Under the pieces are notes generated by a model. It was not told where the DNA came from and ran no database searches. It worked only from the letters and a program-made list of their open reading frames with translations. DNA of 64,000 bases from Nitrospirota bacterium (GTDB taxonomy: Bacteria > Nitrospirota > Thermodesulfovibrionia > Thermodesulfovibrionales > Dissulfurispiraceae), in assembly GCA_963710375.1 (NCBI GenBank), contig CAVPZX010000005.1, forward strand, positions 352,001-416,000, written 5' to 3'. A program made the translations under genes and the position numbers. How positions within the stretch are numbered: position 1 is the stretch's first letter; every line of letters begins with the position of its first letter. Below, piece after piece: positions 12,637 to 63,144 of the stretch.

Positions 12637-12676
12637 ATATCTTTTTAACACACATCAGAAGTCTTGTCAATTTTTG

Positions 12677-12846
12677 GGTAGTGGGCCAGTTTTTTTTTGC
12701 TCTGTATCACCTGGGTTATCAATAGTGGGCGAGTAACGCCGAGCCCACATATATAGAAGTGGCGACCACAGATAATGCTCAATATAGACCAGTGATTGAA
12801 TTGAACGGCTAATTGATACAGAGCAAAAAAAAACTGGCCCACTACC
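12677..12846. mobile_element. 170-bp MITE-like element, 33-bp perfect TIRs, 9-bp target duplication CAATTTTTG
   Basis: GGTAGTGGGCCAG(T9)GCTCTGTATCA ... TGATACAGAGC(A9)CTGGCCCACTACC, flanked by CAATTTTTG at 12668-12676 and 12847-12855. Confidence 0.85.
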
Positions 12847-12890
12847 CAATTTTTGCCTTCTTAACAATTTTATGCTATAGTTTTCTCTGT

Positions 12891-20846: not shown

Positions 20847-21419
20847 GTGAGCAAAAAAGAAAAGTGTGATCATCTAATCTCTCATTACAGTAAGCTTATC
20901 GAATCAAACCCGAATGATTACAGGGCATACAACAATCGCGGCAACGCATACCAGAAGTGTGGGGAATATGATCTCGCTCTTGCCGATTACGATGGGGCCC
21001 TCGAGCTGAACCCGTCATTCGACCTTTGCTACATCAACAGGGGCAACACGTACCAAAAGACAGGCGATTACGAACGTGCAATCGCAGACTATGACAGAGC
21101 GATCGCGCTGAATCCGGAAAACAGCATGGCCTATAACAACAGGGGCTTTGTGTACATGTTAATGCAAAAAAACAAGGAAGCGGAGAGGGACATTAATAAA
21201 TCAATAGAAATCAATCCGAACAATATATATGCCCTGAACAGTATGGCTGAATTTTGTGCTGCCCAACAAAATGCACAGGAGGCGTGCAAATGGCTGAAGA
21301 AGGCCATTGACAAGGGATATAACAACTGGGGATACATCAAATCCTCCCAAACCTACGACAACATACGCTCCGCCGCCTGTTTCAAAGAAATACTGAAGGC
21401 AATAGGCAATAGGCTATAG
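20847..21419 (+). CDS. tetratricopeptide repeat protein
   Basis: Repeated AYNNRG..Y..A..DY..A..LNP units. Confidence 0.92.
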   Translation: MSKKEKCDHLISHYSKLIESNPNDYRAYNNRGNAYQKCGEYDLALADYDGALELNPSFDLCYINRGNTYQKTGDYERAIADYDRAIALNPENSMAYNNRGFVYMLMQKNKEAERDINKSIEINPNNIYALNSMAEFCAAQQNAQEACKWLKKAIDKGYNNWGYIKSSQTYDNIRSAACFKEILKAIGNRL

Positions 21420-21819
21420 GCGATGGGAAAAAATGGTTTCAAGGATTTGATTGTTTGGCAAAAAGCTAAAGCTCTTGCAGTTTATATTTACAAAATATCT
21501 GAAGAAGGATCTATAGGTCGAGATTTTGGTTTGAAAGATCAGATTCGGCGAAGCGTTGTAAGTATAGCGAGCAATTTGGCAGAAGGAGATGAACGCGATA
21601 CAGATAAAGAATCTGTGCGTTTTTTTTATATTGCAAAAGGATCACTTGCCGAACTGCAAACTCAGATCCAAATTGCTAATGAGGTAGGTTATTTGGAAAA
21701 GAACATTTATGAACAATGTGAGAAATGTTGTAAAGAATTGGGGAAAATGATAGGCAGTCTCATCAAAGCGAGAACGAAATCCAATAACCTATAGCCCATC
21801 GCCTATAGCCTATTGCCTG
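21397..21819. mobile_element. cassette of a four-helix-bundle gene bracketed by inverted 7-bp-unit arrays
   Basis: Perfect 24-bp IR: AGGCAATAGGCTATAGGCGATGGG (21404-21427) and CCCATCGCCTATAGCCTATTGCCT (21795-21818); mobility is inferred. Confidence 0.65.
21423..21794 (+). CDS. four helix bundle protein (23S rRNA intervening-sequence protein family)
   Basis: FKDLIVWQKA, DQIRRSVVSIASNLAEG, FFYIAKGSLAELQTQ motifs; visibly AT-rich relative to neighbours. Confidence 0.93.
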   Translation: MGKNGFKDLIVWQKAKALAVYIYKISEEGSIGRDFGLKDQIRRSVVSIASNLAEGDERDTDKESVRFFYIAKGSLAELQTQIQIANEVGYLEKNIYEQCEKCCKELGKMIGSLIKARTKSNNL

Positions 21820-21913
21820 TCTTTTTGTGTTTTTTTTCACATTTATGTAGTATTATTGCTACATTCTCTTCCAGGTACTGTTTTATTATTACTGCATATC
21901 CAAGTAGTTATGC

Positions 21914-26740: not shown

Positions 26741-26753
26741 AACTCCTCCTTAA

Positions 26754-26933
26754 GGGCTCGCGAATAAATACCTTGTACATTGATGCATCTCGGATTTAGG
26801 CCATCTTTGCCCGATCCTCAGTCACAAAATCCTCAACGTAGCTATGCTACGCCTGCGGTTTTGCTCAGTCGGATCAGCCAAATCTGACCCAAATCCGAGC
26901 GCCTGAATGCACAAGGTATTTATTCGCGAGCCC
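26754..26933. mobile_element. 180-bp palindromic MITE-like element, 23-bp perfect TIRs
   Basis: GGGCTCGCGAATAAATACCTTGT ... ACAAGGTATTTATTCGCGAGCCC; interior also pairs (CTCGGATTT/AAATCCGAG). Confidence 0.8.
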
Positions 26934-27024
26934 GTATCTTTTTAAAAGCTTGCTGTGTGCTCAAAACCTTTTTGCTAATCCCACAGCTGGCTGCGGGATT
27001 GATAAACCGAGACACTTTTAGTCT

Positions 27025-27139: not shown

Positions 27140-27472
27140 TTATATCTTTTCCGCTACCCTATGGGTCTCAGGTATCGCCACTTTACTGGCCTTCACAGCG
27201 TCTGCGATGAAACCCGCTGCCCATCCCAGCACACCAAGGCCGACAACAAAGACGACAGCGGTCATCAGTACTCCCGCTATCATGGAAAAGGCGACAATCA
27301 GCCGCGGCATTATAGCCCCTGCCACTATAGGCCCAAACATGCCCTCCGCAATCTTCAATCCGACATACCCTCCGACAAATGAGCCTGGAAGCACTCCTAC
27401 CAGTACCAACAGAACCAGTCCCATACCTGTCCCAATATACAATCCTTTCTTTGCCATATCATTCGTTGCCAT
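27140..27472 (-). CDS. small Gly-rich membrane protein (paralog of 27889-28227)
   Basis: RBS AGGAGG; MAKKGLY..LPGSFVGG shared with paralog. Confidence 0.8.
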   Translation of the reverse strand: MATNDMAKKGLYIGTGMGLVLLVLVGVLPGSFVGGYVGLKIAEGMFGPIVAGAIMPRLIVAFSMIAGVLMTAVVFVVGLGVLGWAAGFIADAVKASKVAIPETHRVAEKI

Positions 27473-27888: not shown

Positions 27889-28227
27889 TTATTTAACTAC
27901 GGATGTAACTTCTCTTTCAATTCTCTTGCCATGCCTTATCGTATCCACAGCATGCCCGACCAACCAGCCCAACAAAGAGAAGCCCACCACAAAGACCACC
28001 CCTGCTAGCATCACCCCAAGCACCATGGATACACTCACAATGATCCTGGGCAGCACAGATGCAGTCAACGGCAGTCCGAAGATGCGGCCCGCGATGTTAA
28101 GTCCGACCACTCCTCCGATAAAGGAGCCTGGAAGCAACCCTGTAAGTGCGAATAAAACGAGACCAGCCCCTATTCCAGTATATAATCCCTTTTTTGCCAT
28201 CTCTCCTAAACCATTACCGTTTGCCAT
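27889..28227 (-). CDS. small Gly-rich membrane protein
   Basis: RBS AGGAGG; MAKKGLY..LPGSFIGG. Confidence 0.8.
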   Translation of the reverse strand: MANGNGLGEMAKKGLYTGIGAGLVLFALTGLLPGSFIGGVVGLNIAGRIFGLPLTASVLPRIIVSVSMVLGVMLAGVVFVVGFSLLGWLVGHAVDTIRHGKRIEREVTSVVK

Positions 28228-29323: not shown

Positions 29324-30325
29324 TCATTTCCCTCTCGCAGATATATCTTCCAGCACCCTTAATTTAGGGACCTCTCCCAGGGCAATCAACGTATCACCGG
29401 CTTCAATAATATTTTGTGAGGTGGGATTGAACTTCATCTCCCCCGAACTTTTTCTGATTGCGACAATGATAATCCCGAGGTCCCGCCCTATGCCGCCTTC
29501 GTCCAGTGTTACCCCGACTAGTCTGGAGCCCTCCGAAATAGAGACCTCTTCCATTTGAAGATCGATATTACCGCTTTGTGTAGCGAATTCTATAAAATCC
29601 ACTACAGCCGGCTTGAGTATAGTATGAGCGATATGGAGACCGCCTATATGATATGGCGATGTTACCCTGTCTGCACCGGCCCGGAGCAGTTTCCGTCCCG
29701 AACCCTCCTCCCCTGCACGGGCGACTATTAAAAGTTGGGGGTTGAGGCCGCGGGCACTCAGGACAACAAAAAGATTTTCCGCATCGGTCGGCAGTACCGT
29801 TATCAGTCCCTTTGCCTTTTCGATACCTGCATCTATCAGCACCGCATCTTGTGTTGCATCACCCTCTACAATAAGGATATTGTCTTTCTCATGCAGCTTA
29901 TTGGGGTTCTTTTCAATAACAATGAACTTTTCCCCCTTTGCATTTAACTCTCTGCATATGATTCTACCCATCCGGCCATACCCGCAAATAATATAGTGGT
30001 CATGCAGATCTCTTATTTTCTTTTCCAATCTATTCCTCCCGAACATGTCTTGAAGTTCTCCTTCCAGCACCACCTTGGCCCCCGTGCTAAGCGCGTAGAA
30101 AACCGTGCCCACACCCCCAATGATAAGGAAAATATTAAATATCCTTCCTTCCGACGATAGATTATGGACTTCCGCATAGCCGACAGTGGTAAGGGTTATA
30201 ATGGTCATATAAAGGGCATCAAGAAAATTCCATCGTTCTATGATGATAAAGCCTGCTGTGCCGATAGCGACTATCAGGAATATCAGCAGGCCGGAGAGTA
30301 TCAGTCTTTTTCTGAGTGTTTCCAA
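29324..30325 (-). CDS. potassium channel with TrkA-N/TrkA-C (RCK) domains
   Basis: TLTTVGY filter (GYA variant); IICGYGRMG Rossmann motif. Confidence 0.9.
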   Translation of the reverse strand: METLRKRLILSGLLIFLIVAIGTAGFIIIERWNFLDALYMTIITLTTVGYAEVHNLSSEGRIFNIFLIIGGVGTVFYALSTGAKVVLEGELQDMFGRNRLEKKIRDLHDHYIICGYGRMGRIICRELNAKGEKFIVIEKNPNKLHEKDNILIVEGDATQDAVLIDAGIEKAKGLITVLPTDAENLFVVLSARGLNPQLLIVARAGEEGSGRKLLRAGADRVTSPYHIGGLHIAHTILKPAVVDFIEFATQSGNIDLQMEEVSISEGSRLVGVTLDEGGIGRDLGIIIVAIRKSSGEMKFNPTSQNIIEAGDTLIALGEVPKLRVLEDISARGK

Positions 30326-30867
30326 TTGTCTAATATTTTTTCCAACTGGGAATCAATGGATTTTTTATGCGAACCACACCAATAAACTTTACCACATTCC
30401 TTGCAAGTAAGAATAGACGTTGCGTTCAGAAAGACATATTCCGGGATCCGGTCGGCAACAGCTTCCCTATCTGTTGCAGCAAGTTCTCCGTTGCATAAAG
30501 TACACCGGGGAACACCTGAAAGGGGGAAAGAGGGACCATCTGAAAGGGGGAACCGGAGAATCGGAGAATCGGGGAAAAGTCTGTAGAGAACCTCTTTCAA
30601 CTGTTCAAGAGTCGAGTTGGAGTGTATGAGAATGACATCAGGCCCAACTTTGCTCCGATTCGCCGATTCCCCGGTTCCCCCTTTCAGCTTTATTGAGGGA
30701 CGCCGCGCGATACCTGTGTCTCTTGTTAAAAGGGTCCTCTCTTGCTGACGGGCTATCTTTATAAGTTCATTATCATCGATGGCCCTGAAATAGATTGTAT
30801 CGAAACCCAGTATCCTGAGCCATCTGGCAAGGCTTCCGAGCATAACATCAGCAATAAAACGAGGCAT
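30301..30867 (-). CDS. Mut7-C RNase domain protein with in-frame repeat insertions
   Basis: FIADVMLGSLARWLRILGFD, LLTRD, RCTLCN, CKECGKVYWCGSH. Confidence 0.9.
   Translation of the reverse strand: MPRFIADVMLGSLARWLRILGFDTIYFRAIDDNELIKIARQQERTLLTRDTGIARRPSIKLKGGTGESANRSKVGPDVILIHSNSTLEQLKEVLYRLFPDSPILRFPLSDGPSFPLSGVPRCTLCNGELAATDREAVADRIPEYVFLNATSILTCKECGKVYWCGSHKKSIDSQLEKILDNWKHSEKD
30540..30687. repeat. intragenic inverted repeat pair with 8-bp unit GGAGAATC
   Basis: CTGAAAGGGGGAACCGGAGAATCGGAGAATCGGGG ... CTCCGATTCGCCGATTCCCCGGTTCCCCCTTTCAG (35 bp, 3 mismatches). Confidence 0.85.
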
Positions 30868-30935
30868 AGGAAGGTTAAGGTCAAGGTTAAGGTTGAGAAA
30901 GGTTTTGACTTAACCTTAACCTCAACCTTATCCTG
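30868..30935. repeat. inverted short-tandem-repeat hairpin, unit AGGTTR, downstream of rpoC
   Basis: AAGGTTAAGGTCAAGGTTAAGGTTGAG ... CTTAACCTTAACCTCAACCTT. Confidence 0.9.
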
Positions 30936-30942
30936 ACTTTTG

Positions 30943-33900
30943 TTACTCTACTTCAGCTTCTTCATGCTCAAGCTGCATGGAATAAAAGTCGCCTTTGATG
31001 AAGGTGTCCCTATATATCTTCATGCCGGATCCAGCAGGTATTACCCTTCCCATAATAACGTTTTCTTTCAGTCCTCTGAGTTCGTCAACAAGCCCGCTCA
31101 ACGCCGCTTCGGTCAAGACCCTCGTGGTTTCCTGGAATGAGGCAGCTGAGACCCAGCTTTCCGTTGACAATGAGGCTTTCGTGATACCGAGCAGTAACGG
31201 CCTGCCCTGGGCAGGTCTCTCGCCTTCACCTCTTACACGCTCATTCTCTTCGGCAAATACCATCCTGTCGACTTCATCACCCATAAGAAATATCGTGTCG
31301 CCAGGGTCCTCAATCCGTATTTTCCGCATCATCTGCCGCACGATGACCTCGATATGCTTATCATTGATAGAGACGCCCTGCAGCCGATAGACCTTCTGCA
31401 CCTCGTCAACAAGATAGCTCTGCAATTCCTTTGGGCCGAGGATGTCGAGTATGCTGTGGGGATTTACCGCTCCATCCATCAGCGGTTCTCCTGCCTTGAC
31501 CCAGTCGCCTTCATGCACGGTAACGTGCTTGCCCTTAGGAATCAGGTATTCTCTCGACTCGCTGCCGCCTTTAACTACGACAACTCTCATCCCTTTATGC
31601 GCGCCCCTGAACTCGACAATGCCGTCGATTTCACTGACAATTGTCTGCTCCTTGGGCTTCCTGGCCTCAAAAAGCTCAGCGACCCTCGGGAGACCCCCGG
31701 TGATGTCCTTTGTTTTTGTAGTTTCCCTCGGTATCTTGGCAAGAATATCGCCTGGCGCCAGCAGATCTCCTCTTTCAACAAGCATATGAGCGCCCGCAGG
31801 CAGCAGATATCTGGCAGGGTTATTTGTGCCAGGGCTCTTAACGGTCTTGCCGTGTTCATCCTTTATCGAAATCCTGGGTCTCATATGAGCAGGATAGTCT
31901 ATGACGACCTTATGCGCTAGACCGGTGGTTTCGTCAACCTCTTCTTTAAAGGTTACGCCTTCGACAAGGTCGCCGAGCGCTATCCTGCCTCCGATTTCAG
32001 TCAGGATCGGAGTAGAGTAAGGGTCCCACTCGACCAGACGCTGGGCGGCATCCACCTTTTGCCCGTCTTCCACAAATATCCTTGCCCCATAGACAAGACT
32101 GTATTTTTCTTTTTCGCGGCCTGTCTTATCGACAATGGCGAGCATGGCGTTCCGGTTGAGCACTATCAGAACGTCCTCCTTGTTTTTGACCGCGCTTACG
32201 TCAATGAATTTTACAAACCCGGAATTCTTCGGCGCCAACGTAGCCTGCTCAATGATCTTTGTAGCAGCTCCACCGATATGGAAGGTCCTCATGGTGAGCT
32301 GCGTGCCGGGCTCTCCTATAGACTGGGCAGCGATAATGCCTATCGACTCTCCGATCTCGATCTTGCCGCCCCTCGCAAGGTCTCTGCCATAGCATTTGCC
32401 GCATACGCCGATCTTTGAGTGGCAGGTTAGCACAGAGCGTATCTTCACCCTATCAATGCCCGCATCCACGACCTTCCTTGCCAATTCGTCGTCAATTTCG
32501 ACGTTTCTGTTTGCAATGATCTCATTGGTCACGGGATCTTTGAGAGTTTCGGCAAGCGTCCTGCCGAATATGCGCTCCTCAAGGGACTGAATAATTTCTC
32601 CCCCCTCTATGAGCGGGATTACCGTAATCCCTTCCCTTGTGCCGCAGTCTTCTTCTATGAGGATAACGTCCTGGGCAACATCGACAAGTCTCCTGGTAAG
32701 GTATCCCGCGTTGGCGGTTTTCAATGCGGTATCGGCAAGGCCCTTACGCGCACCGTGCGTTGAAATAAAGTACTGGAGCGGAGTAAGTCCTTCCCTGAAA
32801 TTGGCGGTAATAGGCGTCTCTATGATCTCCCCCGAAGGCTTGGCCATCAGTCCCCTCATACCCGCAAGCTGGCGTATCTGGGCTGCGCTGCCTCTTGCTC
32901 CGGAGTCAGCCATCATAAATATGCTGTTAAAGGAACGGCTCTCTTTAATTTCTTCTTCGGAGAGCGACTTGCCCTCCTCAGCGCCCAGTTCCTTCATCAT
33001 CTCATCGGCGACCTTCTCTGTAACGTTGGCCCAGATATCGATGACCTTGTTGTACCGCTCACCCTGGGTAATCAGACCGTCGGCATACTGCCGCTGGACC
33101 TCCATTACTTCCTGTTCAGCCTCTTTGATCAGCTCAGCCTTTTTAGACGGCACGTGCATATCATCGATGCAGATAGAAATGCCGGAGTTGGTAGCGTATT
33201 TGAATCCCAGCCGTTCGAGCTCATTCAGAAACACAACAGTATCCCGTTTCCCCGATACTTTATGTATATACTCGATCAGCTTTCCCAATTCCTTCTTAGT
33301 CAGTTCTCTGTTGGCCGCTTCAAAGGGTATATTCTTGGGCAGTATCTCGCTGAATATAATCCTTCCCACAGTTGTTTCGACAAAACCGCCGTTCATTCTT
33401 ACCTTGACGGCAGCGTGCTCATCAATAACCCCGGAGTCATAAGCAATACGCACATCATCGGTATCAGCGAACAGCTTCCCTTCACCCCTCGCCCCTTTCC
33501 TCTGCTTTGTCAGATAGTAGAGGCCGAGGACCATGTCCTGCGTAGGTACAACTACAGGCTTTCCGTTGGCCGGCGAAAGGAGGTTGTTTACCGAGAGCAT
33601 CAATACCCGCGCCTCTATTTGTGCTTCAACCGACAAGGGGACATGCACTGCCATCTGATCACCGTCAAAGTCGGCATTGAACGCCGTACAGACAAGCGGG
33701 TGCAGCTTTATGGCTTTCCCTTCCACCAGGACAGGGTCAAAAGCCTGTATTCCCAGGCGGTGCAGTGTCGGGGCACGGTTCAACAGCACGGGGTGCTCAC
33801 TTATGACGTCCTCGAGGGCATCCCATACTTCAGGCTGTTCATGCTCGACGAGCCTTTTTGCCTGCTTTATTGTCGTAGCGTAACCTTTCTCCTCAAGCTT

Positions 33901-38990: not shown

Positions 38991-39009
38991 AGGTCTCCTT
39001 CTTTAAAAT

Positions 39010-39108
39010 CAGGTTGAGGTTTAGGTTAAGGTTAAGTAAAATCAAAGACAAAGGCAATCTAAATGCAGATTTGTTCCTCATCTTGCCCTCAACCTTAACC
39101 TTAACCTG
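39010..39108. repeat. inverted short-tandem-repeat hairpin, unit AGGTTR, rplL-rpoB spacer
   Basis: CAGGTTGAGGTTTAGGTTAAGGTTAAG ... CTCAACCTTAACCTTAACCTG. Confidence 0.9.
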
Positions 39109-39119
39109 TCTTTCCCGTG

Positions 39120-39503
39120 TTATTTTATTTCTACTTTAGCCCCTTCTGCCTCGAGTTTGGCCTTGATTGAGTCAGCTTCTTCCTTTGAGACGCCTGTCTT
39201 GACCGGCTTGGGCGCACTATCTACCACGTCTTTGGCTTCTTTGAGACCGAGACTGGTGATTTCCCTTACGACTTTGATGACCTGAATTTTCTTGTCACCG
39301 ACTGCTGTCAGAATAACATCAAAACTCGACTTTTCTTCAGCCGCAGCAGGCGCGCCGGCCGCAGCACCCGGCGCTGCAGCAACCGCAACCGGGGCAGCCG
39401 CGGTTACCCCGTAGCGCTCCTCGAATTCCTTAATAAACTTCGACATCTCGAGAATAGTCATATTATCAATGAAACCGAATACATCATCCTTTGTAACAGC
39501 CAT
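39120..39503 (-). CDS. rplL: 50S ribosomal protein L7/L12
   Basis: Ala-rich hinge, [17 protein letters not shown]. Confidence 0.98.
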
Positions 39504-39517
39504 CTAAATGTCCTCCT

Positions 39518-40039
39518 TTATGTACTTTTTTTATTTTTTACCGCTTCTAAAGCGTAAGCAAATTGAGCTATAGTTGCATTCAGCGCACAGGCCAGTTTAG
39601 CTGCAGGAGCCTGGAAGGTCCCTGCCATCATGCCAAGAAGAATATTCCTCGGCGGCAGCTTTGAAATGGCTTTAAGTTCATCAAATGAGAAGAGTTTCCC
39701 TTCAACAATGCCGCTCTTGATTTTGAGCTTGTCGTTCTTTGCGGAATACTCAAGTAACTTTTTGGCGGCGGCTACCGGATCATCAAAACCGAACGCGACA
39801 GCGGTAGGGCCCACAAAAAAGTCTTTAGCTGCTTCTACGGGGGTGCCTTTTACCGCGATAGCGATCAGCGTATTCTTTGCAACCTTATATTCTGCGTTGA
39901 CTTCCTTCAAGAGCTTTCGAAGGTTGGCGATCTCGGCTACAGTCAGCCCTTTGTACTCCGTGAAAACAACAGCTTTTGACCGTGAAAACTTTTCAGTCAG
40001 TTCCGTTATTTGTTGGGATTTTTTTTCCTTGGTAATCAA
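39518..40039 (-). CDS. rplJ: 50S ribosomal protein L10
   Basis: YKGLTV, VAKNTL motifs; synteny. Confidence 0.97.
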   Translation of the reverse strand: MITKEKKSQQITELTEKFSRSKAVVFTEYKGLTVAEIANLRKLLKEVNAEYKVAKNTLIAIAVKGTPVEAAKDFFVGPTAVAFGFDDPVAAAKKLLEYSAKNDKLKIKSGIVEGKLFSFDELKAISKLPPRNILLGMMAGTFQAPAAKLACALNATIAQFAYALEAVKNKKST

Positions 40040-40070
40040 ATGCTTCCTCCTTTCCTAGAGACCATCTTTC

Positions 40071-40165
40071 AGCAGGCAGTAAGCAGTATAAGTAAGCAGT
40101 AGGCAGTAAATACTTCAGCAGGCAGTAAGCAGTCTACTGCTTACTTATACTCTTTACTGCATACT
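40071..40165. repeat. inverted short-tandem-repeat hairpin, 7-bp unit GCAGTAR
   Basis: AGTATAAGTAAGCAGTAG / CTACTGCTTACTTATACT, plus a duplicated TTCAGCAGGCAGTAAGCAGT. Confidence 0.8.
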
Positions 40166-40182
40166 CGTTCTTTTCTGTCACT

Positions 40183-40246
40183 GTCTCGGTAGGCTGGCCG
40201 GTATAGCTGCCAATTAAAGTATGCCGTACTACCTACTGTCTCCGAC
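40183..40246 (-). promoter_or_regulatory. ribosomal protein L10 leader RNA
   Basis: Minus strand GTCGGAGACAGTAGGT...TTAAT...CCTACCGAGAC upstream of rplJ resembles the L10 leader core. Confidence 0.75.
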
Positions 40247-40280
40247 TAGTATCTAAACAGGCAAAGCCTGTATAAAAACA

Positions 40281-40394
40281 TAGGCAATAGGCGAGAGGTT
40301 AAAGGCTAAAGGTAAAAGACAGAACACGGACATGCTTTCATTTATATTTTGTGCCTTTATTAACCCTTTAGCCATTTGCCTCTTGCCTTTCGCC
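40281..40394. repeat. inverted short-tandem-repeat hairpin, degenerate 7-bp unit AGGCWAW
   Basis: TAGGCAATAGGCGAGAGGTTAAAGGCTAAAGG ... CCTTTAGCCATTTGCCTCTTGCCTTTCGCC. Confidence 0.8.
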
Positions 40395-40399
40395 AGCTG

Positions 40400-41089
40400 T
40401 TAACCCACTTTTAGTCTGGCGACATCAAGTTTAATTCCAAGTCCCATGGTTGATGACATTGTGATTTTCTTTATATACTTCCCTTTTGAAGAAGAGGGCT
40501 TTGCCTTTACTACGGCCTTCAACACAGCCGCTGTATTTTCCAGGAGCTTTTCTTTATCGAACGAAACCTTTCCTACCGGCACATGCACAATGCCCGCTTT
40601 CTCAACTTTATATTCAACCTTGCCCGCCTTTATCTCCTTAACAGCCTTACCGATGTCAAACGTCACTGTGCCCAGTTTGGGATTTGGCATAAGTCCTCTC
40701 GGTCCGAGCAGCTTGCCGAGTTTGCCTACCATTCCCATCAAGTCGGGTGTTGCCACAGCCTTGTCAAAATCCAGCCATCCTTTCTGGATTTTTTCAACCA
40801 TGTCCTCAGCACCAACGAAATCCGCGCCAGCCTCTCTCGCCTCTTTTTCCTTTTCTCCCTTTGCAAATGCCAGCACACGCACAGGTTTTCCTGTTCCATA
40901 AGGGAGCACAACGGTCCCCCTTACCATCTGGTCGGACTTCTTTGCATCAACACCGAGGTTTATTGCGATATCAACCGTCTCGTCGAACTTTGCAACCATG
41001 TTCTCCTTAACCAGAGTTATTGCTTCCTCGATGGTGTATTCTTTATTTGTATCAACCTTTGCCGCCGCATTGTCAAATTTCTTGCCCAT
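40400..41089 (-). CDS. rplA: 50S ribosomal protein L1
   Basis: [23 protein letters not shown]. Confidence 0.98.
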
Positions 41090-41103
41090 TTGCTCGCTCC
41101 TCC

Positions 41104-41532
41104 TCAATCCTTTATTTCCACACCCATGCTTCTGGCGGTGCCCTTGATAATCCGTGCCGCAGATTCAAGCGATGTGGTATTCAGGTCGGGCAATTTTGTC
41201 TTTGCTATCTCTTCCACCTGGGCATTAGTCAAGGCGCCGACCTTATCCTTGTTGGGAACACCCGAGCCCTTTACAATGCCTGCCGCCTTCTTGATGAGTT
41301 CCGATGCAGGCGGCGTCTTAAGCACAAACGTAAAGGACCTGTCATTATAAATGTTTAACACTGCTGGGATTAGCGTATCGCCCATGCTCTGGGTCTGTGC
41401 ATTGAACTGTTTGCAGAATTCCATAATATTGATCCCGTGCGGTCCGAGCGCCGGTCCTACAGGTGGCGCCGGGTTCGCCTTTCCAGCAGGTATCACGAGC
41501 TTAACCTGTGCAATTACCTCTTTCTTAGCCAT
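41104..41532 (-). CDS. rplK: 50S ribosomal protein L11
   Basis: [22 protein letters not shown]. Confidence 0.98.
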
Positions 41533-41561
41533 TTATAACCTCCAAAAATTTCTTTTTCTTT

Positions 41562-41595
41562 GACCCAGTGCCCATAGCCCATTGCCCATAGCCTG
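41562..41595. repeat. solo 7-bp-unit array (GCCCATW)
   Basis: GACCCAGTGCCCATAGCCCATTGCCCATAGCCTG with no partner arm nearby. Confidence 0.65.
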
Positions 41596-41598
41596 TCT

Positions 41599-42123
41599 TT
41601 AAGCTTTTTCCACCTGCGAGAAGGCCAATTCAACTGGTGTCTGCCTCCCGAATATGCTCACCAGAACACGCATCCTTCCGTGGTCCATATCGACTTCATC
41701 CACATAGCCGACAAAATTGCTGAACGGGCCGTCGATGATTCTTACGTTTTCACCCTTTTCATACTGACTCTTTACCATAGGGGCAGGTCCTTTTTCGATC
41801 TGCTGAAGTATAACTTCGACCTCTTCTTCAGGAAGCGGTACCGGCCTGGCCCCCCCTACAAAGCCTGTGACACGTGGAGCATTCTTGACGAGATGCCACG
41901 TATCGTCATCAAGCTCCATTTCTACAAGGATGTAACCAGGATAAAACTTCCTGTTGGTCTCCTTCTTCTTTTTCCCCTTGAGTTCGACAACCTTTTCGGT
42001 GGGGATCAGTATCCTGGTAATTTTTTCCTCAAGGGATTTCAGTTTGACTTTCTCTTCAATGGAAATCTTTACCTTTTCTTCGTAGCCCGAATATGTGTGC
42101 ACAACGTACCAGCTCTTAGCCAT
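41599..42123 (-). CDS. nusG: transcription factor NusG
   Basis: WYVVHTYSGYE, YPGYILVEM, KOW domain. Confidence 0.98.
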   Translation of the reverse strand: MAKSWYVVHTYSGYEEKVKISIEEKVKLKSLEEKITRILIPTEKVVELKGKKKKETNRKFYPGYILVEMELDDDTWHLVKNAPRVTGFVGGARPVPLPEEEVEVILQQIEKGPAPMVKSQYEKGENVRIIDGPFSNFVGYVDEVDMDHGRMRVLVSIFGRQTPVELAFSQVEKA

Positions 42124-42131
42124 CGCCCCTC

Positions 42132-42317
42132 TTACCGTATGAGTAATTTCACAATTTTAGACAGACTCAGATCGACAATACCCAGAAACACCGAGACGAT
42201 TATCACCGTAATAATAACGACCCGTGTAGAGCCCAGAAGATCGTCCCTTGATGGATAATTGACCTTCTTTGCCTCTGTTTTCACTTCTTTGAAAAAGGTT
42301 TTCAACTTGTCCAGCAT
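42132..42317 (-). CDS. secE: preprotein translocase SecE
   Basis: EAKKVNYP plus TM helix; synteny. Confidence 0.95.
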   Translation of the reverse strand: MLDKLKTFFKEVKTEAKKVNYPSRDDLLGSTRVVIITVIIVSVFLGIVDLSLSKIVKLLIR

Positions 42318-42336
42318 TCCGTCTCCTTAAATTGCA

Positions 42337-42408
42337 AAGTTAAGGTTGAGGTTCAGGTTAAGAATTTAGATGCTTTAAAATCTTAGCCTCAACCTTAGAC
42401 TTAACCTG
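42337..42408. repeat. inverted short-tandem-repeat hairpin, unit AGGTTR
   Basis: AAGTTAAGGTTGAGGTTCAGGTTAAG ... CTTAGCCTCAACCTTAGACTTAACCTG. Confidence 0.85.
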
Positions 42409-42415
42409 CCTATTA

Positions 42416-42491
42416 TGGCAGGCCAGGAGGGATTTGAACCCCCAGCCCTCGGATTTGGAGTCCGATGCTCTGCCGTTAGAGCTACTGGCCT
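42416..42491 (-). tRNA. tRNA-Trp(CCA)
   Basis: Cloverleaf on minus strand, anticodon CCA, CCA end; canonical position before secE. Confidence 0.96.
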
Positions 42492-42495
42492 ATCC

Positions 42496-42648
42496 TTATG
42501 CTTTTGTCTCCTTATGCACGCTATGCTTTCTGCAATGCCTGCAATATTTCTTGAGCTGGAGTTTCTCGGTTGTATTCTTCTTGTTCTTCATGTTGGAATA
42601 ATTTTTATTTTTGCACTCAGTGCACTGAAACAGGATTATATCTCTCAT
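42496..42648 (-). CDS. rpmG: 50S ribosomal protein L33 (not in ORF track)
   Basis: Manual translation [50 protein letters not shown]. Confidence 0.96.
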
Positions 42649-42651
42649 GGG

Positions 42652-43851
42652 TTACTCCAGTATTTCCGTAACAACACCGGCGCCAACTGTCCTGCCGCCC
42701 TCGCGTATGGCAAACCGCAGTTCCTTCTCCATCGCTATGGGCGCTATCATCTCTACCGATATCGTTACATTGTCGCCAGGCATTACCATCTCTATCCCCT
42801 CAGGCAACGTCGCCACCCCTGTCACGTCCGTTGTCCTGAAATAGAACTGCGGACGATATCCGTTGAAAAACGGGGTGTGTCTGCCCCCCTCTTCCTTCGT
42901 CAGTATGTACGCCTCTGCCTTGAACTTCGTGTGCGGGGTTATACTGCCCGGCTTTGCCAGCACCATGCCCCTCTCCACTTCGTCCTTCCCTGTTCCCCTG
43001 AGCAGTACCCCTATATTGTCTCCGGCACGCCCTTCATCCAGCAGCTTCCTGAACATCTCCACCCCGGTAGCCACTGTCTTCCTCGTCTCCCTCAACCCCA
43101 CTATCTCTACTTCCTCTCCTACCTTCACTATCCCGCGCTCTACCCTTCCTGTCACTACCGTGCCCCTTCCAGATATCGAAAATACATCCTCTATCGGCAT
43201 GATGAACGGCTTGTCCACAGGCCGCTCTGGCGTCGGTATGTAACTGTCAACAGCATCGCCAAGCTCAAGTATGCACTTGTACTCAGGCGCATTGGGATCA
43301 TTGCTCGGGCTCTCCATCGCCTTCAGCGCGCTGCCCCTTATTATAGGTATCTCATTGCCCGGAAATCCGTACTTCACCAACAACTCCCTTACTTCAAGCT
43401 CCACCAGGTCCAATAGCTCAGGGTCATCCACCATGTCCACTTTATTCATAAATACCACCATGTACGGCACCCCTACCTGACGCGCCAGCAGTATGTGCTC
43501 CCTTGTCTGCGGCATCGGCCCGTCCGCTGCGCTCACTACCAATATCGCGCCGTCCATCTGCGCTGCACCGGTGATCATGTTCTTTACATAGTCGGCATGC
43601 CCCGGACAGTCTACATGTGCATAGTGACGCTTCTCTGTCTCGTACTCCACATGCGCTGTCGCTATCGTTATACCACGAGCCTTCTCTTCAGGCGCGTTGT
43701 CTATCTGATCATATGCCTTGTACTGTGCCAGGCCCTTCATCGCTAATACCTTGGTTATCGCCGCCGTCAATGTCGTCTTGCCATGGTCAACATGCCCTAT
43801 CGTCCCCACGTTCGCGTGCGGCTTTACCCTCTCAAATTTCGCCTTAGCCAT
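42652..43851 (-). CDS. tuf: elongation factor Tu
   Basis: [21 protein letters not shown]. Confidence 0.99.
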
Positions 43852-43894
43852 ATCTCTCCCCCCTCAGTAAATTAGGAATTCGTAATCATCTCAA

Positions 43895-43967
43895 AGCCCA
43901 TGATCGGAATCGAACCGATGACCTCATCCTTACCAAGGATGTGCTCTGCCGACTGAGCTACATGGGC
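43895..43967 (-). tRNA. tRNA-Thr(GGT)
   Basis: Cloverleaf, anticodon GGT. Confidence 0.95.
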
Positions 43968-43970
43968 AAG

Positions 43971-44042
43971 AGCGGGAAACGGGATTCGAACCCGCGACCC
44001 TCAGCTTGGAAGGCTGACGCTCTACCGCTGAGCTACTCCCGC
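43971..44042 (-). tRNA. tRNA-Gly(TCC)
   Basis: Cloverleaf, anticodon TCC. Confidence 0.95.
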
Positions 44043-44154
44043 AATCAGCAAATGTATAGTATAAACTAAAAAAGAGATTAATGCTATAGCCGTCTATACT
44101 ATTCATGCTGTTCCGGAAAACCATGCCGCCCCATTTGTCAGCCCCATTAGCTTA

Positions 44155-44239
<85 letters not shown>

Positions 44240-44246
44240 TGAAAAT

Positions 44247-44321
44247 CAGGTTAAGGTTAAGGCAAGCGAAGAAAAAAGTTCTTAATGTTTTTTACTTAAC
44301 CTTAACCTCAACCTTAACCTG
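44247..44321. repeat. inverted short-tandem-repeat hairpin, unit AGGTTA, between tRNAs
   Basis: CAGGTTAAGGTTAAGG ... CTTAACCTTAACCTCAACCTTAACCTG. Confidence 0.85.
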
Positions 44322-44331
44322 TCTTTTACAA

Positions 44332-61879: not shown

Positions 61880-62925
61880 TGATACAGCCGATCCTGTTTC
61901 TCATTGGCAGCCTTTTTATGATTTTGGTCAGTGCTGAGTTTTTTACCAATGGGGTTGAATCCTTCGGCAGGCGTCTCTCCTTATCACAGGCTGTTGTCGG
62001 AAGCGTTTTGGCCGCAATCGGCACTGCCTTGCCGGAGACAATCCTGCCCCTGGTCGCCATCCTCCTGCACGGCGATAATACTGCAAGGAAGATCGGTGTC
62101 GGTGCAATCCTTGGCGCTCCCTTCATGCTTTCGACGCTCGCCTTTTTTGTTGTAGGGGCGACAGTAGTATTCGGTATGCTCAGAAAAAAAAGAAAATTCG
62201 TGCTTTATGTAGATACCAGTTCTATAAGACGCGACCTCATCTTTTTCATCATCATGTACGGCTCAGCTATCTTTTTGCCACTTCTCGTACCGTACAGTCA
62301 TCTCCTGATTGCAGGATTGCTTGTAACCGGCTATGTGCTGTACGTATACTCGACATTTAAGGCCGAAAGTGCCGAGATACTCCATGCCGATCAGCTGCAT
62401 TTTGAAAAGCTGTTGTCCGACTTTAGGAGGCTCGCAGGTTTGCAACTGCGATCGGCCCGGGCAGAGCCATACAAGACCACTTCTTTGATACTTATTTGCT
62501 TTCAGATAACCGCTTCGCTCAGCGTCATGGTAGGCGGCGCACATATATTTGTCGGGAGTCTCGAAAAACTTTCACTCTCGTGGGGCATGAGTCCCCTGCT
62601 GTTTGCCCTGCTGGTCGCGCCGATTGCCACGGAATTGCCCGAGAAATTCAATAGCGTGACATGGACGCTGAAAGGCAGAGACACGCTTGCCATGGGAAAC
62701 ATAACCGGTGCAATGGTTTTTCAGACAACATTTCCTGTCTCGGTAGGGTTACTGTTTACAGAATGGCATATCTCAGGACTGGCGCTCCTCTCAGCAGTCC
62801 TGGCATTGATATCAGCCTTGATCGTCCTGGTAAATATTCAGATCGGCAAGAAAATCTCACCTGCCGCAATGCTTTTTGGAGGCGTAATTTACACGATCTT
62901 TGCGCTATCCGTATTGTTAAAGTGA
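61879..62925 (+). CDS. sodium:calcium antiporter family protein
   Basis: GTALPE and ATELPE alpha repeats. Confidence 0.88.
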   Translation: MIQPILFLIGSLFMILVSAEFFTNGVESFGRRLSLSQAVVGSVLAAIGTALPETILPLVAILLHGDNTARKIGVGAILGAPFMLSTLAFFVVGATVVFGMLRKKRKFVLYVDTSSIRRDLIFFIIMYGSAIFLPLLVPYSHLLIAGLLVTGYVLYVYSTFKAESAEILHADQLHFEKLLSDFRRLAGLQLRSARAEPYKTTSLILICFQITASLSVMVGGAHIFVGSLEKLSLSWGMSPLLFALLVAPIATELPEKFNSVTWTLKGRDTLAMGNITGAMVFQTTFPVSVGLLFTEWHISGLALLSAVLALISALIVLVNIQIGKKISPAAMLFGGVIYTIFALSVLLK

Positions 62926-63110
62926 CTGCAATTCAGACAGTACGGGGTAATTTTTCTTTGCGAGCGATTAGCCCTCTGTACCAGCCCTGCTGCCTATACG
63001 GAAGATAAACTTTGTTCCAGCTATATATGTTGGGCTCGGCGTTACTCGCCCCTGCAGATAACCCAGGCGCTCGACTGCAGAAAAACAACCCCGTACTGTC
63101 TGAATTGCAG
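62926..63110. mobile_element. 185-bp MITE-like element, 23-bp perfect TIRs, 9-bp target duplication TTAAAGTGA
   Basis: CTGCAATTCAGACAGTACGGGGT ... ACCCCGTACTGTCTGAATTGCAG; TTAAAGTGA at 62917-62925 and 63111-63119. Confidence 0.85.
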
Positions 63111-63144
63111 TTAAAGTGAAGAGTCAGAATTTAGTTTTTATTGA

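What the first reader, a model, noticed from the sequence alone, without database searches (positions are those of the whole stretch)
30540..30687. Repeat arms inserted in-frame inside a Mut7-C gene around host coding sequence
Seen: 35-bp inverted arms (3 mismatches, unit GGAGAATC) are translated as LKGGTGESANRS and FPDSPILRFPLS. They enclose VILIHSNSTLEQLKEVL, which looks like the normal Mut7-C linker, and the reading frame is preserved. A further copy of CTGAAAGGGGG lies at 30516. Inference: the loop is host DNA, so paired arms can arise around pre-existing sequence rather than inserting as one block. This constrains the mechanism and creates new protein loops.
Basis: partly seen in the sequence, partly recalled or inferred. 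Interest (0 to 1): 0.7.

Follow-up and report, generated by a model that had tools for sequence, protein, structure and literature searches.

The report
Pruned hairpin repeats bracketing host codons
Two facing 41-base repeat arms sit in frame in neighbouring loops of a bacterial Mut7-C gene with 16 ordinary host codons between them; relatives show a complete hairpin repeat at the second loop, so the pair is likely the outer halves of two separate repeats that lost their inner halves, not a new element that wraps itself around host DNA.

Summary
In detail: arms at 30540-30580 and 30647-30687 (37 of 41 complementary) lie in frame in a Mut7-C gene, and the 16 codons between them are orthologous host sequence. 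The 148 bp is not one insertion. But the arms were probably not born as a pair. Homologs show every intermediate: a complete compact hairpin in the 3' loop (including the closest homolog, 91% identical), that hairpin plus the 5' arm, the 5' arm alone, the 3' arm alone with several deletion junctions, and a flipped hairpin. The 5' site keeps half an apex and an outer-end remnant. Best reading: two same-family hairpins, inner arms deleted, alleles shuffled by recombination, and the outer end of the 5' arm briefly corrected against its new partner. The 30516 copy is a local 24-nt tandem duplication. A relative has a second bracketed pair in another gene, at background complementarity. The repeat class (four tandem 6-8-nt words, paired, often intragenic) is described in Geobacter and Xanthomonas, and this scan found it before in this genome and many others. 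What spreads these repeats remains unknown.

The parts
30301..30867 (-). Host gene: Mut7-C RNase-domain protein, 188 aa, directly downstream of rpoC and upstream of a TrkA-domain potassium channel gene
   Evidence: PF01927, E 1.2e-36. D7, D50 and the four cysteines C122/C125/C155/C158 are invariant or nearly so in alignment A2.
30634..30699 (-). Site 1 insert (codons 57-78; net +16 codons against arm-less alleles): A-rich flank, purine arm, half apex and outer-end remnant
   Evidence: Same length and position in G001, L110, L111, P0001 and P0004.
30647..30687 (-). 5' (gene-sense) purine arm: four 8-nt words of the GAATCGGN family plus half apex; encodes LKGGTGESANRSK
30634..30645 (-). Likely remnant of the lost pyrimidine arm of site 1 (GPDV codons), resembling the outer end of the site-2 element
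   Evidence: 6-7 of 7 match to five site-2 alleles; 5 of 65 other family flanks match as well. Inferred.
30586..30633 (-). Orthologous host sequence (codons 79-94, ILIHSNSTLEQLKEVL); predicted core strand and helix
   Evidence: (3 differences in 48 nt to G005 and to L110)
30580..30585 (-). Deletion junction where relatives L110 and L111 carry 51 more bases, including the inner purine arm of the site-2 hairpin
   Evidence: alignment
30540..30580 (-). 3' (gene-sense) pyrimidine arm: half apex plus four words; surviving half of the site-2 compact hairpin; encodes LFPDSPILRFPLS
   Evidence: 0 of 12 residues differ from P0002, which has the whole hairpin
30505..30552 (-). 24-nt tandem duplication (two units, codons 106-113 and 114-121) that explains the extra copy at 30516; likely slippage between CCGG microhomologies
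   Evidence: absent from the relatives aligned there. Slippage is inferred.
30864..30941 (.). Neighbouring intergenic compact hairpin of another word family (AGGTT hexamers) between rpoC and the Mut7-C start; shown for context

Best explanation
The two arms are members of a genome-wide family of four-word hairpin repeats and are likely the outer halves of two separate compact hairpins that entered neighbouring tolerant loops of Mut7-C in frame and then lost their inner halves by deletion, leaving 16 host codons between facing arms. Steps. (1) A whole hairpin sat at site 2: shown in relatives. (2) A second family copy entered site 1: shown as a separate insert; that it was once whole is inferred from its half apex and outer-end remnant; whether it came from site 2 or from elsewhere is open, with a lean to local copying. 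(3) The inner purine arm of site 2 was deleted several times at different junctions: junctions shown, deletion inferred. (4) Homologous recombination moved the tract 'site-1 arm plus loop' between lineages: inferred from mosaic alleles. (5) Polymerase template switching corrected the outer few bases of the 5' arm against its new partner: inferred. The repeats are probably tolerated passengers; no function is shown, and the enzyme that spreads them is unknown.
For: Allelic series: whole site-2 hairpin without site 1 (P0002, P0029/L114); site 1 plus whole hairpin (P0003/L110, L111); site 1 only (P0004); pyrimidine arm only (P0006, P0009, P0013, P0014); site 1 plus pyrimidine arm (G000, G001/P0005, P0001). 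At least four different junctions remove the inner arm (G000; G001, L113, L115; G002; G003). P0002 differs from G000 at 0 of 56 N-terminal, 0 of 12 arm-2 and 3 of 62 C-terminal residues, yet lacks site 1; P0001 shares site 1 and the loop (1 of 17 different) but differs at 17 of 62 C-terminal residues. Lone arms are common: 151 of 596 arms in G000. The two arms of ordinary family hairpins are no more alike than arms of different loci (24.5 vs 24.9 of 33). A second bracketed pair, in a membrane/TPR-family gene of G001, encloses 119 nt of conserved codons with only 30 of 41 complementary. Templating: G000's 5' arm has three changes at its outer end (positions 1, 6, 7) that match its partner, and that outermost word is seen in 2 of 65 other arms. 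L114 carries site 2 in flipped form. Template switching is reported to homogenise arms and invert spacers (PMC5941160, PMC8604942; abstracts seen). Neighbouring elements share a word family more than shuffled labels do (13 of 27 vs 5.0 at 100-500 nt; 25 of 68 vs 12.6 at 0.5-1.5 kb).
Against: No allele with a whole hairpin at site 1 was found among the site-1 carriers seen (G000, G001, L110, L111, P0001, P0004), so that step rests on a 7-nt remnant. The half apex at site 1 is mostly the type expected of an inverted copy of arm 2, which also fits the first rival. Two of the five positions where G000's 5' arm differs from all three orthologous arms point away from its partner. The pair was picked for its symmetry, so 30 of 33 (reached by 2.1% of 2446 cross pairs) is subject to ascertainment. 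The protein tree is poorly resolved (12 of 28 inner branches open) and does not reject one clade of site-1 carriers (p-AU 0.064), so the order and direction of events are not established. The loop DNA of G002, a close relative by rpoC, is further from G000 (17 of 45) than that of the more distant G001 (13 of 45). P0001, P0002 and P0004 were seen as proteins only.
Confidence: 0.62

Rival explanations
1. The 5' arm was made in one step as an inverted copy of the 3' arm by template switching across the host codons, so a paired arm really does arise around existing sequence.
For: In G001 and L110 site 1 ends in the half apex expected of an inverted copy. G000's 5' arm is as close or closer to six of seven site-2 pyrimidine arms (32-37 of 41; 28 for G001's) than to other 5' arms (31-33). 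The word family is rare in G000 (7 of 330 elements), so two independent hits in one gene are unlikely. L114 shows that inversion events occur at this site.
Against: The other three 5' arms are not closer to their own partners (28, 32, 32 of 41) than to each other (32-34). Site 1 also carries a direct-orientation outer-end remnant that a simple inverted copy does not explain. An unrelated locus (L095) has similar ends. The second bracketed pair is at background complementarity.
Confidence: 0.2
2. The long hairpin is kept by selection as an RNA or DNA structure, for example a pause or processing signal at the end of the rpoBC transcript.
For: Stable predicted stem (z -5.02). The purine-then-pyrimidine order matches the genome-wide bias (230 vs 15). 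G000 and P0001 share the more complementary outer word (protein level).
Against: The closest homolog lacks the 5' arm; 64 of 72 classified homologs lack site 1; arms are lost repeatedly; the G001 pair is only 28 of 41 complementary.
Confidence: 0.1
3. The 148 bp is a single MITE- or RPE-like block, inserted or inherited as a unit.
For: The 5' arm and the loop do appear to travel together as a recombination tract.
Against: The loop is orthologous in all 29 relatives. The arms occur separately. Arm 2 is identical to P0002's while arm 1 and the loop resemble P0001's. The outer 17-mer has no other copy in the genome.
Confidence: 0.03
4. Assembly artefact or chance symmetry.
For: P0007, a clustered near-copy, is frameshifted just after the 24-nt duplication, so errors do occur here.
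Against: A contig of run X5 spans the region with 0 differences. The cluster's 188-aa member is on 7 contigs. Reversed-word controls give 16 tracts (35 of the 40 words) against 596 arms.
Confidence: 0.02

Closest known systems
Geobacter multicopy four-repeat elements (G. metallireducens, PMC2700814; G. bemidjiensis, PMC2996986; passages read, supplements not seen)
   Same: Sites of four tandem octa- or heptanucleotide repeats, found in pairs on opposite strands at variable distance. [quoted passage not shown] A G. bemidjiensis family is inserted in genes without frameshifts.
   Different: Different words (GAATCGGN here; GTTGCTYN, GGACCGG and others there). They were read as putative regulator sites or RNAs. 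The passages seen give no allelic series and no pair enclosing conserved host codons. Their alignments are in supplements I did not open and may bear on the variable-distance pairs.
GGGAATC / GGGGA(C/T)T heptamer repeats of Xanthomonas and Nostoc (Rehm et al. 2015, PMC4692102; passages read)
   Same: Preference for four units; 70-75 convergent inverted pairs per Xanthomonas genome; similar word.
   Different: Heptamers with G-tracts able to form G-quadruplexes, under-represented in coding regions. Here the unit is 8 nt with only GG-GGG and sits in frame in core genes.
Rickettsia palindromic elements (as summarised in PMC6649704, passages read; otherwise recalled)
   Same: Palindromic repeat DNA tolerated in frame inside protein-coding genes and losing repeat identity over time.
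   Different: RPEs insert as one block of conserved sequence (recalled). Here the arms are tandem words, the loop is host DNA, and the two arms have separate histories.
Template-switch homogenisation of inverted repeats (PMC5941160, PMC8604942; abstracts read)
   Same: Correction of one arm against the other and inversion between arms, including in coding DNA; matches the clustered outer-end changes in G000 and the flipped allele L114.
   Different: Those studies concern short native inverted repeats, not dispersed repeat families. Here the correction is partial (37 of 41) and inferred from three bases.
Four-helix-bundle (PF05635, TIGR02436; Avd-like) genes flanked by tandem-word arms
   Same: Same geometry, purine arm - enclosed gene - pyrimidine arm; one example lies in this window (gene match 21441-21755, arms 21385-21837).
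   Different: None of the six G000 copies carries the GAATCGG word. The Mut7-C pair encloses part of a core gene, not a passenger gene. A role of the protein in spreading the repeats is untested.

Membership tests
Four-word tandem hairpin repeats (Geobacter/Xanthomonas type) | Arm of about four tandem 6-8-nt words | tested here: met
   Both arms have four 8-nt words; most of 71 family arms have four
Four-word tandem hairpin repeats (Geobacter/Xanthomonas type) | Dispersed, multicopy, paired on opposite strands | tested here: met
   Pattern hits in 7 of 10 genus genomes, 0 for the reversed control; 13 family arms in G000
Four-word tandem hairpin repeats (Geobacter/Xanthomonas type) | Occurs both between and inside genes without frameshift | tested here: met
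   66 of 596 arms lie inside my own gene calls; in-frame family hairpin in prmC of G000 and G001
Xanthomonas/Nostoc G-quadruplex heptamers | Four consecutive G3-G4 tracts in a 7-nt unit | tested here: not met
   Unit is 8 nt and mostly GG plus a variable base; folding not tested experimentally
Rickettsia palindromic element / MITE | Inserted as one block whose loop belongs to the element | tested here: not met
   Loop is orthologous host sequence and the arms assort separately
Rickettsia palindromic element / MITE | Other copies of the whole element in the genome | tested here: not met
   The outer 17-mer occurs only in these two arms
Rickettsia palindromic element / MITE | Target-site duplication | tested here: inconclusive
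   No clean duplication is visible in alignments; junctions are eroded
Four-helix-bundle cassette | PF05635/TIGR02436 gene between the arms | tested here: not met
   The arms enclose Mut7-C codons; the six PF05635 genes lie elsewhere with other words
Template-switch-corrected inverted repeat | Clustered changes in one arm that match the other arm | tested here: inconclusive
   3 clustered changes towards the partner, 2 away; ascertainment applies
Mut7-C RNase domain (host) | Pfam PF01927 above cut-off with conserved acidic residues and four cysteines | tested here: met
   126.4 bits against cut-off 23.3
Mut7-C RNase domain (host) | Nuclease activity retained with the inserts | not testable with these tools
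   Needs an assay

The most novel reading that the evidence does not exclude
These hairpin repeats can capture adjacent host DNA into their loop. A local duplication or template jump copies the site-2 element one loop upstream, reciprocal pruning leaves one arm on each side of host codons, and templated correction re-couples them into a new pair. The Mut7-C alleles would then be snapshots of the route by which the same arms come to flank whole passenger genes such as the four-helix-bundle cassettes.
Probability: 0.22. Interest if true: 0.68.

Novelty: new variant of a known kind. Interest (0 to 1): 0.38.

Why it matters
The origin and spread of four-word tandem repeats in Geobacter, Xanthomonas, cyanobacteria and Nitrospirota is unexplained. 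This locus gives a rare allelic series (whole, pruned, flipped, recombined) in one core gene. It shows that a long-loop pair around host DNA need not reflect a special pairing mechanism, and it warns against reading such pairs as element ends. It also gives a concrete substrate for testing local copying and template switching. It does not identify the mobilising enzyme or a function, which limits its weight.

Tried and rejected
Single-sequence AlphaFold2 gave pLDDT 39 and was not used; the alignment-based model was used. Foldseek against the PDB gave no match at E <= 0.001; a profile search found C. elegans-type exonuclease mut-7 chain 8q66_A at E 3.4e-4 (the organism label is recalled). No GxxExxY-type PF13366 gene in G000. 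No RNA holder listed for the region. Contigs of X4, X5, X6 and X8 showed no inverted or deleted loop of G000's own allele; the joint 30581-30650 matches a paralogous family hairpin and the X6 joints look like relatives' alleles; contigs cannot show rare variants. An early idea that G000 and G001 are sisters was rejected: G000 groups with G002, G003 and G005 (92-93% rpoC identity) and G001 lies outside (86.6%). An early idea that the 3' arm came alone and first was dropped once whole site-2 hairpins appeared. The 5' flank test for a local copy was mixed: 7-8 of 12 for three alleles, 3-5 of 12 for G000. In one search the site-2 anchor was misplaced for G000 and G001, so those two rows were not counted. 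Paper searches found no description of tandem-word arms enclosing host codons or of four-helix-bundle genes flanked by them; the library is open-access only, so this is weak evidence. A sequence look-up of earlier scan notes found nothing for this gene. Pfam gave no family for the membrane part of the G001 second-case gene; its identity rests on similarity to a TPR-bearing G000 protein.

Full report
Observation. The window lies in genome G000 (3.19 Mb, 9 contigs). A homolog with the same sequence as the same-genus G001 protein is labelled Dissulfurispiraceae by its source, and other homologs Nitrospirota. The ORF 30301-30867 (-) encodes a 188-aa Mut7-C protein between rpoC and a TrkA-domain channel gene. 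Arms at 30540-30580 and 30647-30687 pair at 37 of 41 positions. The predicted RNA stem has z -5.02. A contig of run X5 spans 30220-31400 without differences.

The repeat family. Each arm is four 8-nt words (GAATCGGN and variants) followed by half of an AAAAG-N-CTTTT apex. The word occurs in tandem in 7 of 10 genus genomes, and in none when reversed. I collected 71 arms from all of G000 and from selected loci of G001, G002, G003 and G005; these loci were chosen from pattern hits, so they are a partial sample, and one G002 arm is counted twice. G000 has many such families: 193 of 342 inverted repeats are tandem-like, 172 of them purine arm first. A word scan gives 596 arms, 66 inside my own gene calls, against 16 tracts for 35 reversed control words. 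151 arms have no partner within 150 nt. Twenty host genes checked include prmC, tgt, hypF, fliP and a radical-SAM/TRAM protein; 19 of 20 had a Pfam match. At the same intergenic sites, relatives often carry a different word.

Is the loop host DNA? Yes. The middle segment aligns in all 29 relatives. G000's 48 nt differ from G005 and L110 at 3 positions. With alignment A2, AlphaFold2 places it as a core strand and helix at pLDDT about 90, with both inserts in low-confidence loops. Of the first 74 homologs (120 listed, 315 found), 64 have the 31-residue arm-less spacing at site 1, 6 have 47, 2 have 30 or 34, and 2 could not be parsed. One of the six, P0007, is a frameshifted near-copy of G000's own protein. 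The 3' site is a hotspot: more distant relatives carry other word families there.

How the pair formed. The genus sample first suggested that the 3' arm came alone (G002, G003). Wider sampling changed this. P0002, the closest homolog (91%), has no site-1 insert and a complete hairpin at site 2. P0003/L110 and L111 have the site-1 arm and the complete hairpin. P0004 has only site 1. L114/P0029 has the site-2 hairpin in flipped form. P0006, P0009, P0013 and P0014 keep only the pyrimidine arm. The DNA alignment shows at least four different junctions removing the inner purine arm; G000 lacks 51 nt present in L110 and L111. Site 1 ends in a half apex followed by a short remnant that matches the outer end of five site-2 alleles at 6-7 of 7 positions; 5 of 65 other family flanks do as well. 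I infer that site 1 is itself a pruned hairpin. No whole site-1 hairpin was found.

Mosaic alleles. G000 groups with G002, G003 and G005 by rpoC, rpoB and the channel gene, with G001 outside, yet G000 and G001 share site 1. G000 matches P0002 at both flanks and arm 2 (0 of 56, 0 of 12, 3 of 62 differences) and P0001 in the loop (1 of 17). So the tract from site 1 to the site-2 apex was probably exchanged by homologous recombination. The direction is unknown, the protein tree is largely unresolved, and one clade of site-1 carriers is not rejected (p-AU 0.064).

Why the arms match so well. The two arms of ordinary family hairpins are no more alike than arms of different loci (24.5 vs 24.9 of 33). 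The Mut7-C pair, at 30, is the best of 28 pairs and is reached by 2.1% of 2446 cross pairs. G000's 5' arm matches its partner at 37 of 41 but its three orthologous arms at 31-33. Of five positions where it differs from all three, three lie in the outer 7 nt and match the partner; two point away. The outermost word is seen in 2 of 65 other arms. This fits a short template-switch correction (mechanism as in PMC5941160 and PMC8604942, abstracts read), with the caveat that the pair was chosen for its symmetry. The 30516 copy is the second unit of a 24-nt tandem duplication absent from the aligned relatives.

Was site 1 copied locally? It is not settled. For: the family is 7 of 330 elements in G000; neighbouring elements share a family more than chance up to 5 kb, also without the densest cluster; the end remnant resembles site 2. 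Against: G000's 5' flank matches site-2 flanks only at 3-5 of 12, and an unrelated G001 locus (L095) has similar ends. Clustering could also reflect regions acquired from donors with one preferred word.

Generality. Of 47 same-family pairs with loops over 45 nt in G000, Mut7-C is the only one with both arms inside one well-supported gene; the others were not tested against orthologs. A second case was found in G001 (L093:983-1183, minus strand): family arms in two neighbouring loops of a membrane/TPR-family gene enclose 119 nt of conserved codons and pair at only 30 of 41. Paralogs of that gene carry whole hairpins, lone arms and mixed-word pairs in the same loops. As a control, prmC of G000 and G001 has the family hairpin as one block, absent in the four other genus genes that my pattern parsed.

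Comparison with what is known. Geobacter genomes have four-repeat octamer and heptamer sites in pairs on opposite strands at variable distance, and intragenic families without frameshifts (PMC2700814, PMC2996986; passages read, supplements not seen). Xanthomonas and Nostoc have four-unit heptamers in inverted pairs (PMC4692102; passages read). Rickettsia elements show in-frame palindromes (via PMC6649704; passages read). PMC4679880 (passages read) describes intragenic heptamers in Beggiatoaceae. The locus works like these repeats and meets their descriptive features; it is not an RPE- or MITE-like block. Six four-helix-bundle genes exist in G000, two directly bracketed by facing arms of other words; their role is untested. 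Seven paper searches found no account of arms enclosing host codons. Earlier notes of this scan report the class in this genome and in many others.

Verdict. The feature is real and the loop is host DNA. The pair is best read as the remains of two pruned hairpins with a little local correction (0.62), ahead of a direct inverted copy (0.2). It is a new variant of a known kind, interest 0.38. The bolder reading, capture of host DNA into a repeat loop by local copying, has probability about 0.22.

Noticed in passing
window 21385-21837: Four-helix-bundle gene (PF05635, TIGR02436; weak match to Avd below cut-off) bracketed by AGGCAAT-type purine and pyrimidine arms; five more such genes lie elsewhere in G000.
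   Followed up: partly
window about 39000-44330 and loci L035-L050: The spacers tRNA-secE, nusG-rplK, rplA-rplJ, rplL-rpoB and rpoC-mut7C carry hairpins whose word family changes between close relatives at the same site; nusG-rplK of G000 has a lone purine arm.
   Followed up: partly
window about 40040-40400: Two tandem-word hairpins in the rplA-rplJ spacer, one between conserved blocks that look like the L10 leader RNA (label recalled, not tested); relatives have other words at the same place.
   Followed up: no
L154 (G000 prmC) and L187 (G001): In-frame whole GAATCGG hairpin between the two domains of PrmC, longer in G001.
   Followed up: partly
L093:983-1183 (-), G001: Second case of same-family arms enclosing conserved host codons, 30 of 41 complementary.
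   Followed up: yes
L160/L174 and L175-L185: An expanded membrane/TPR gene family carries repeat arms of many words in the same four to five loops, including mixed-word facing pairs.
   Followed up: partly
L083 (G003:C4:268500-273000): Three compact GAATCGG hairpins about 500 nt apart, suggesting local propagation.
   Followed up: no
window 12674-12849, 26751-26936, 62925-63111: Three non-tandem inverted repeats (36 nt at 100%, 36 nt at 89%, 33 nt at 94%) with 104-121-nt loops; possibly MITE-like.
   Followed up: no
G009:C133 and G006:C15 (L031, L026): The Mut7-C gene appears broken in G009 (stops inside the match) and frameshifted near the start in G006, so it may be dispensable or misassembled there.
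   Followed up: no
window 27140-27472 and 27889-28227: Two paralogous glycine-rich membrane ORFs (71% DNA identity over 128 nt) flank a 117-aa ORF that had no match in the fetched syntenic loci.
   Followed up: no
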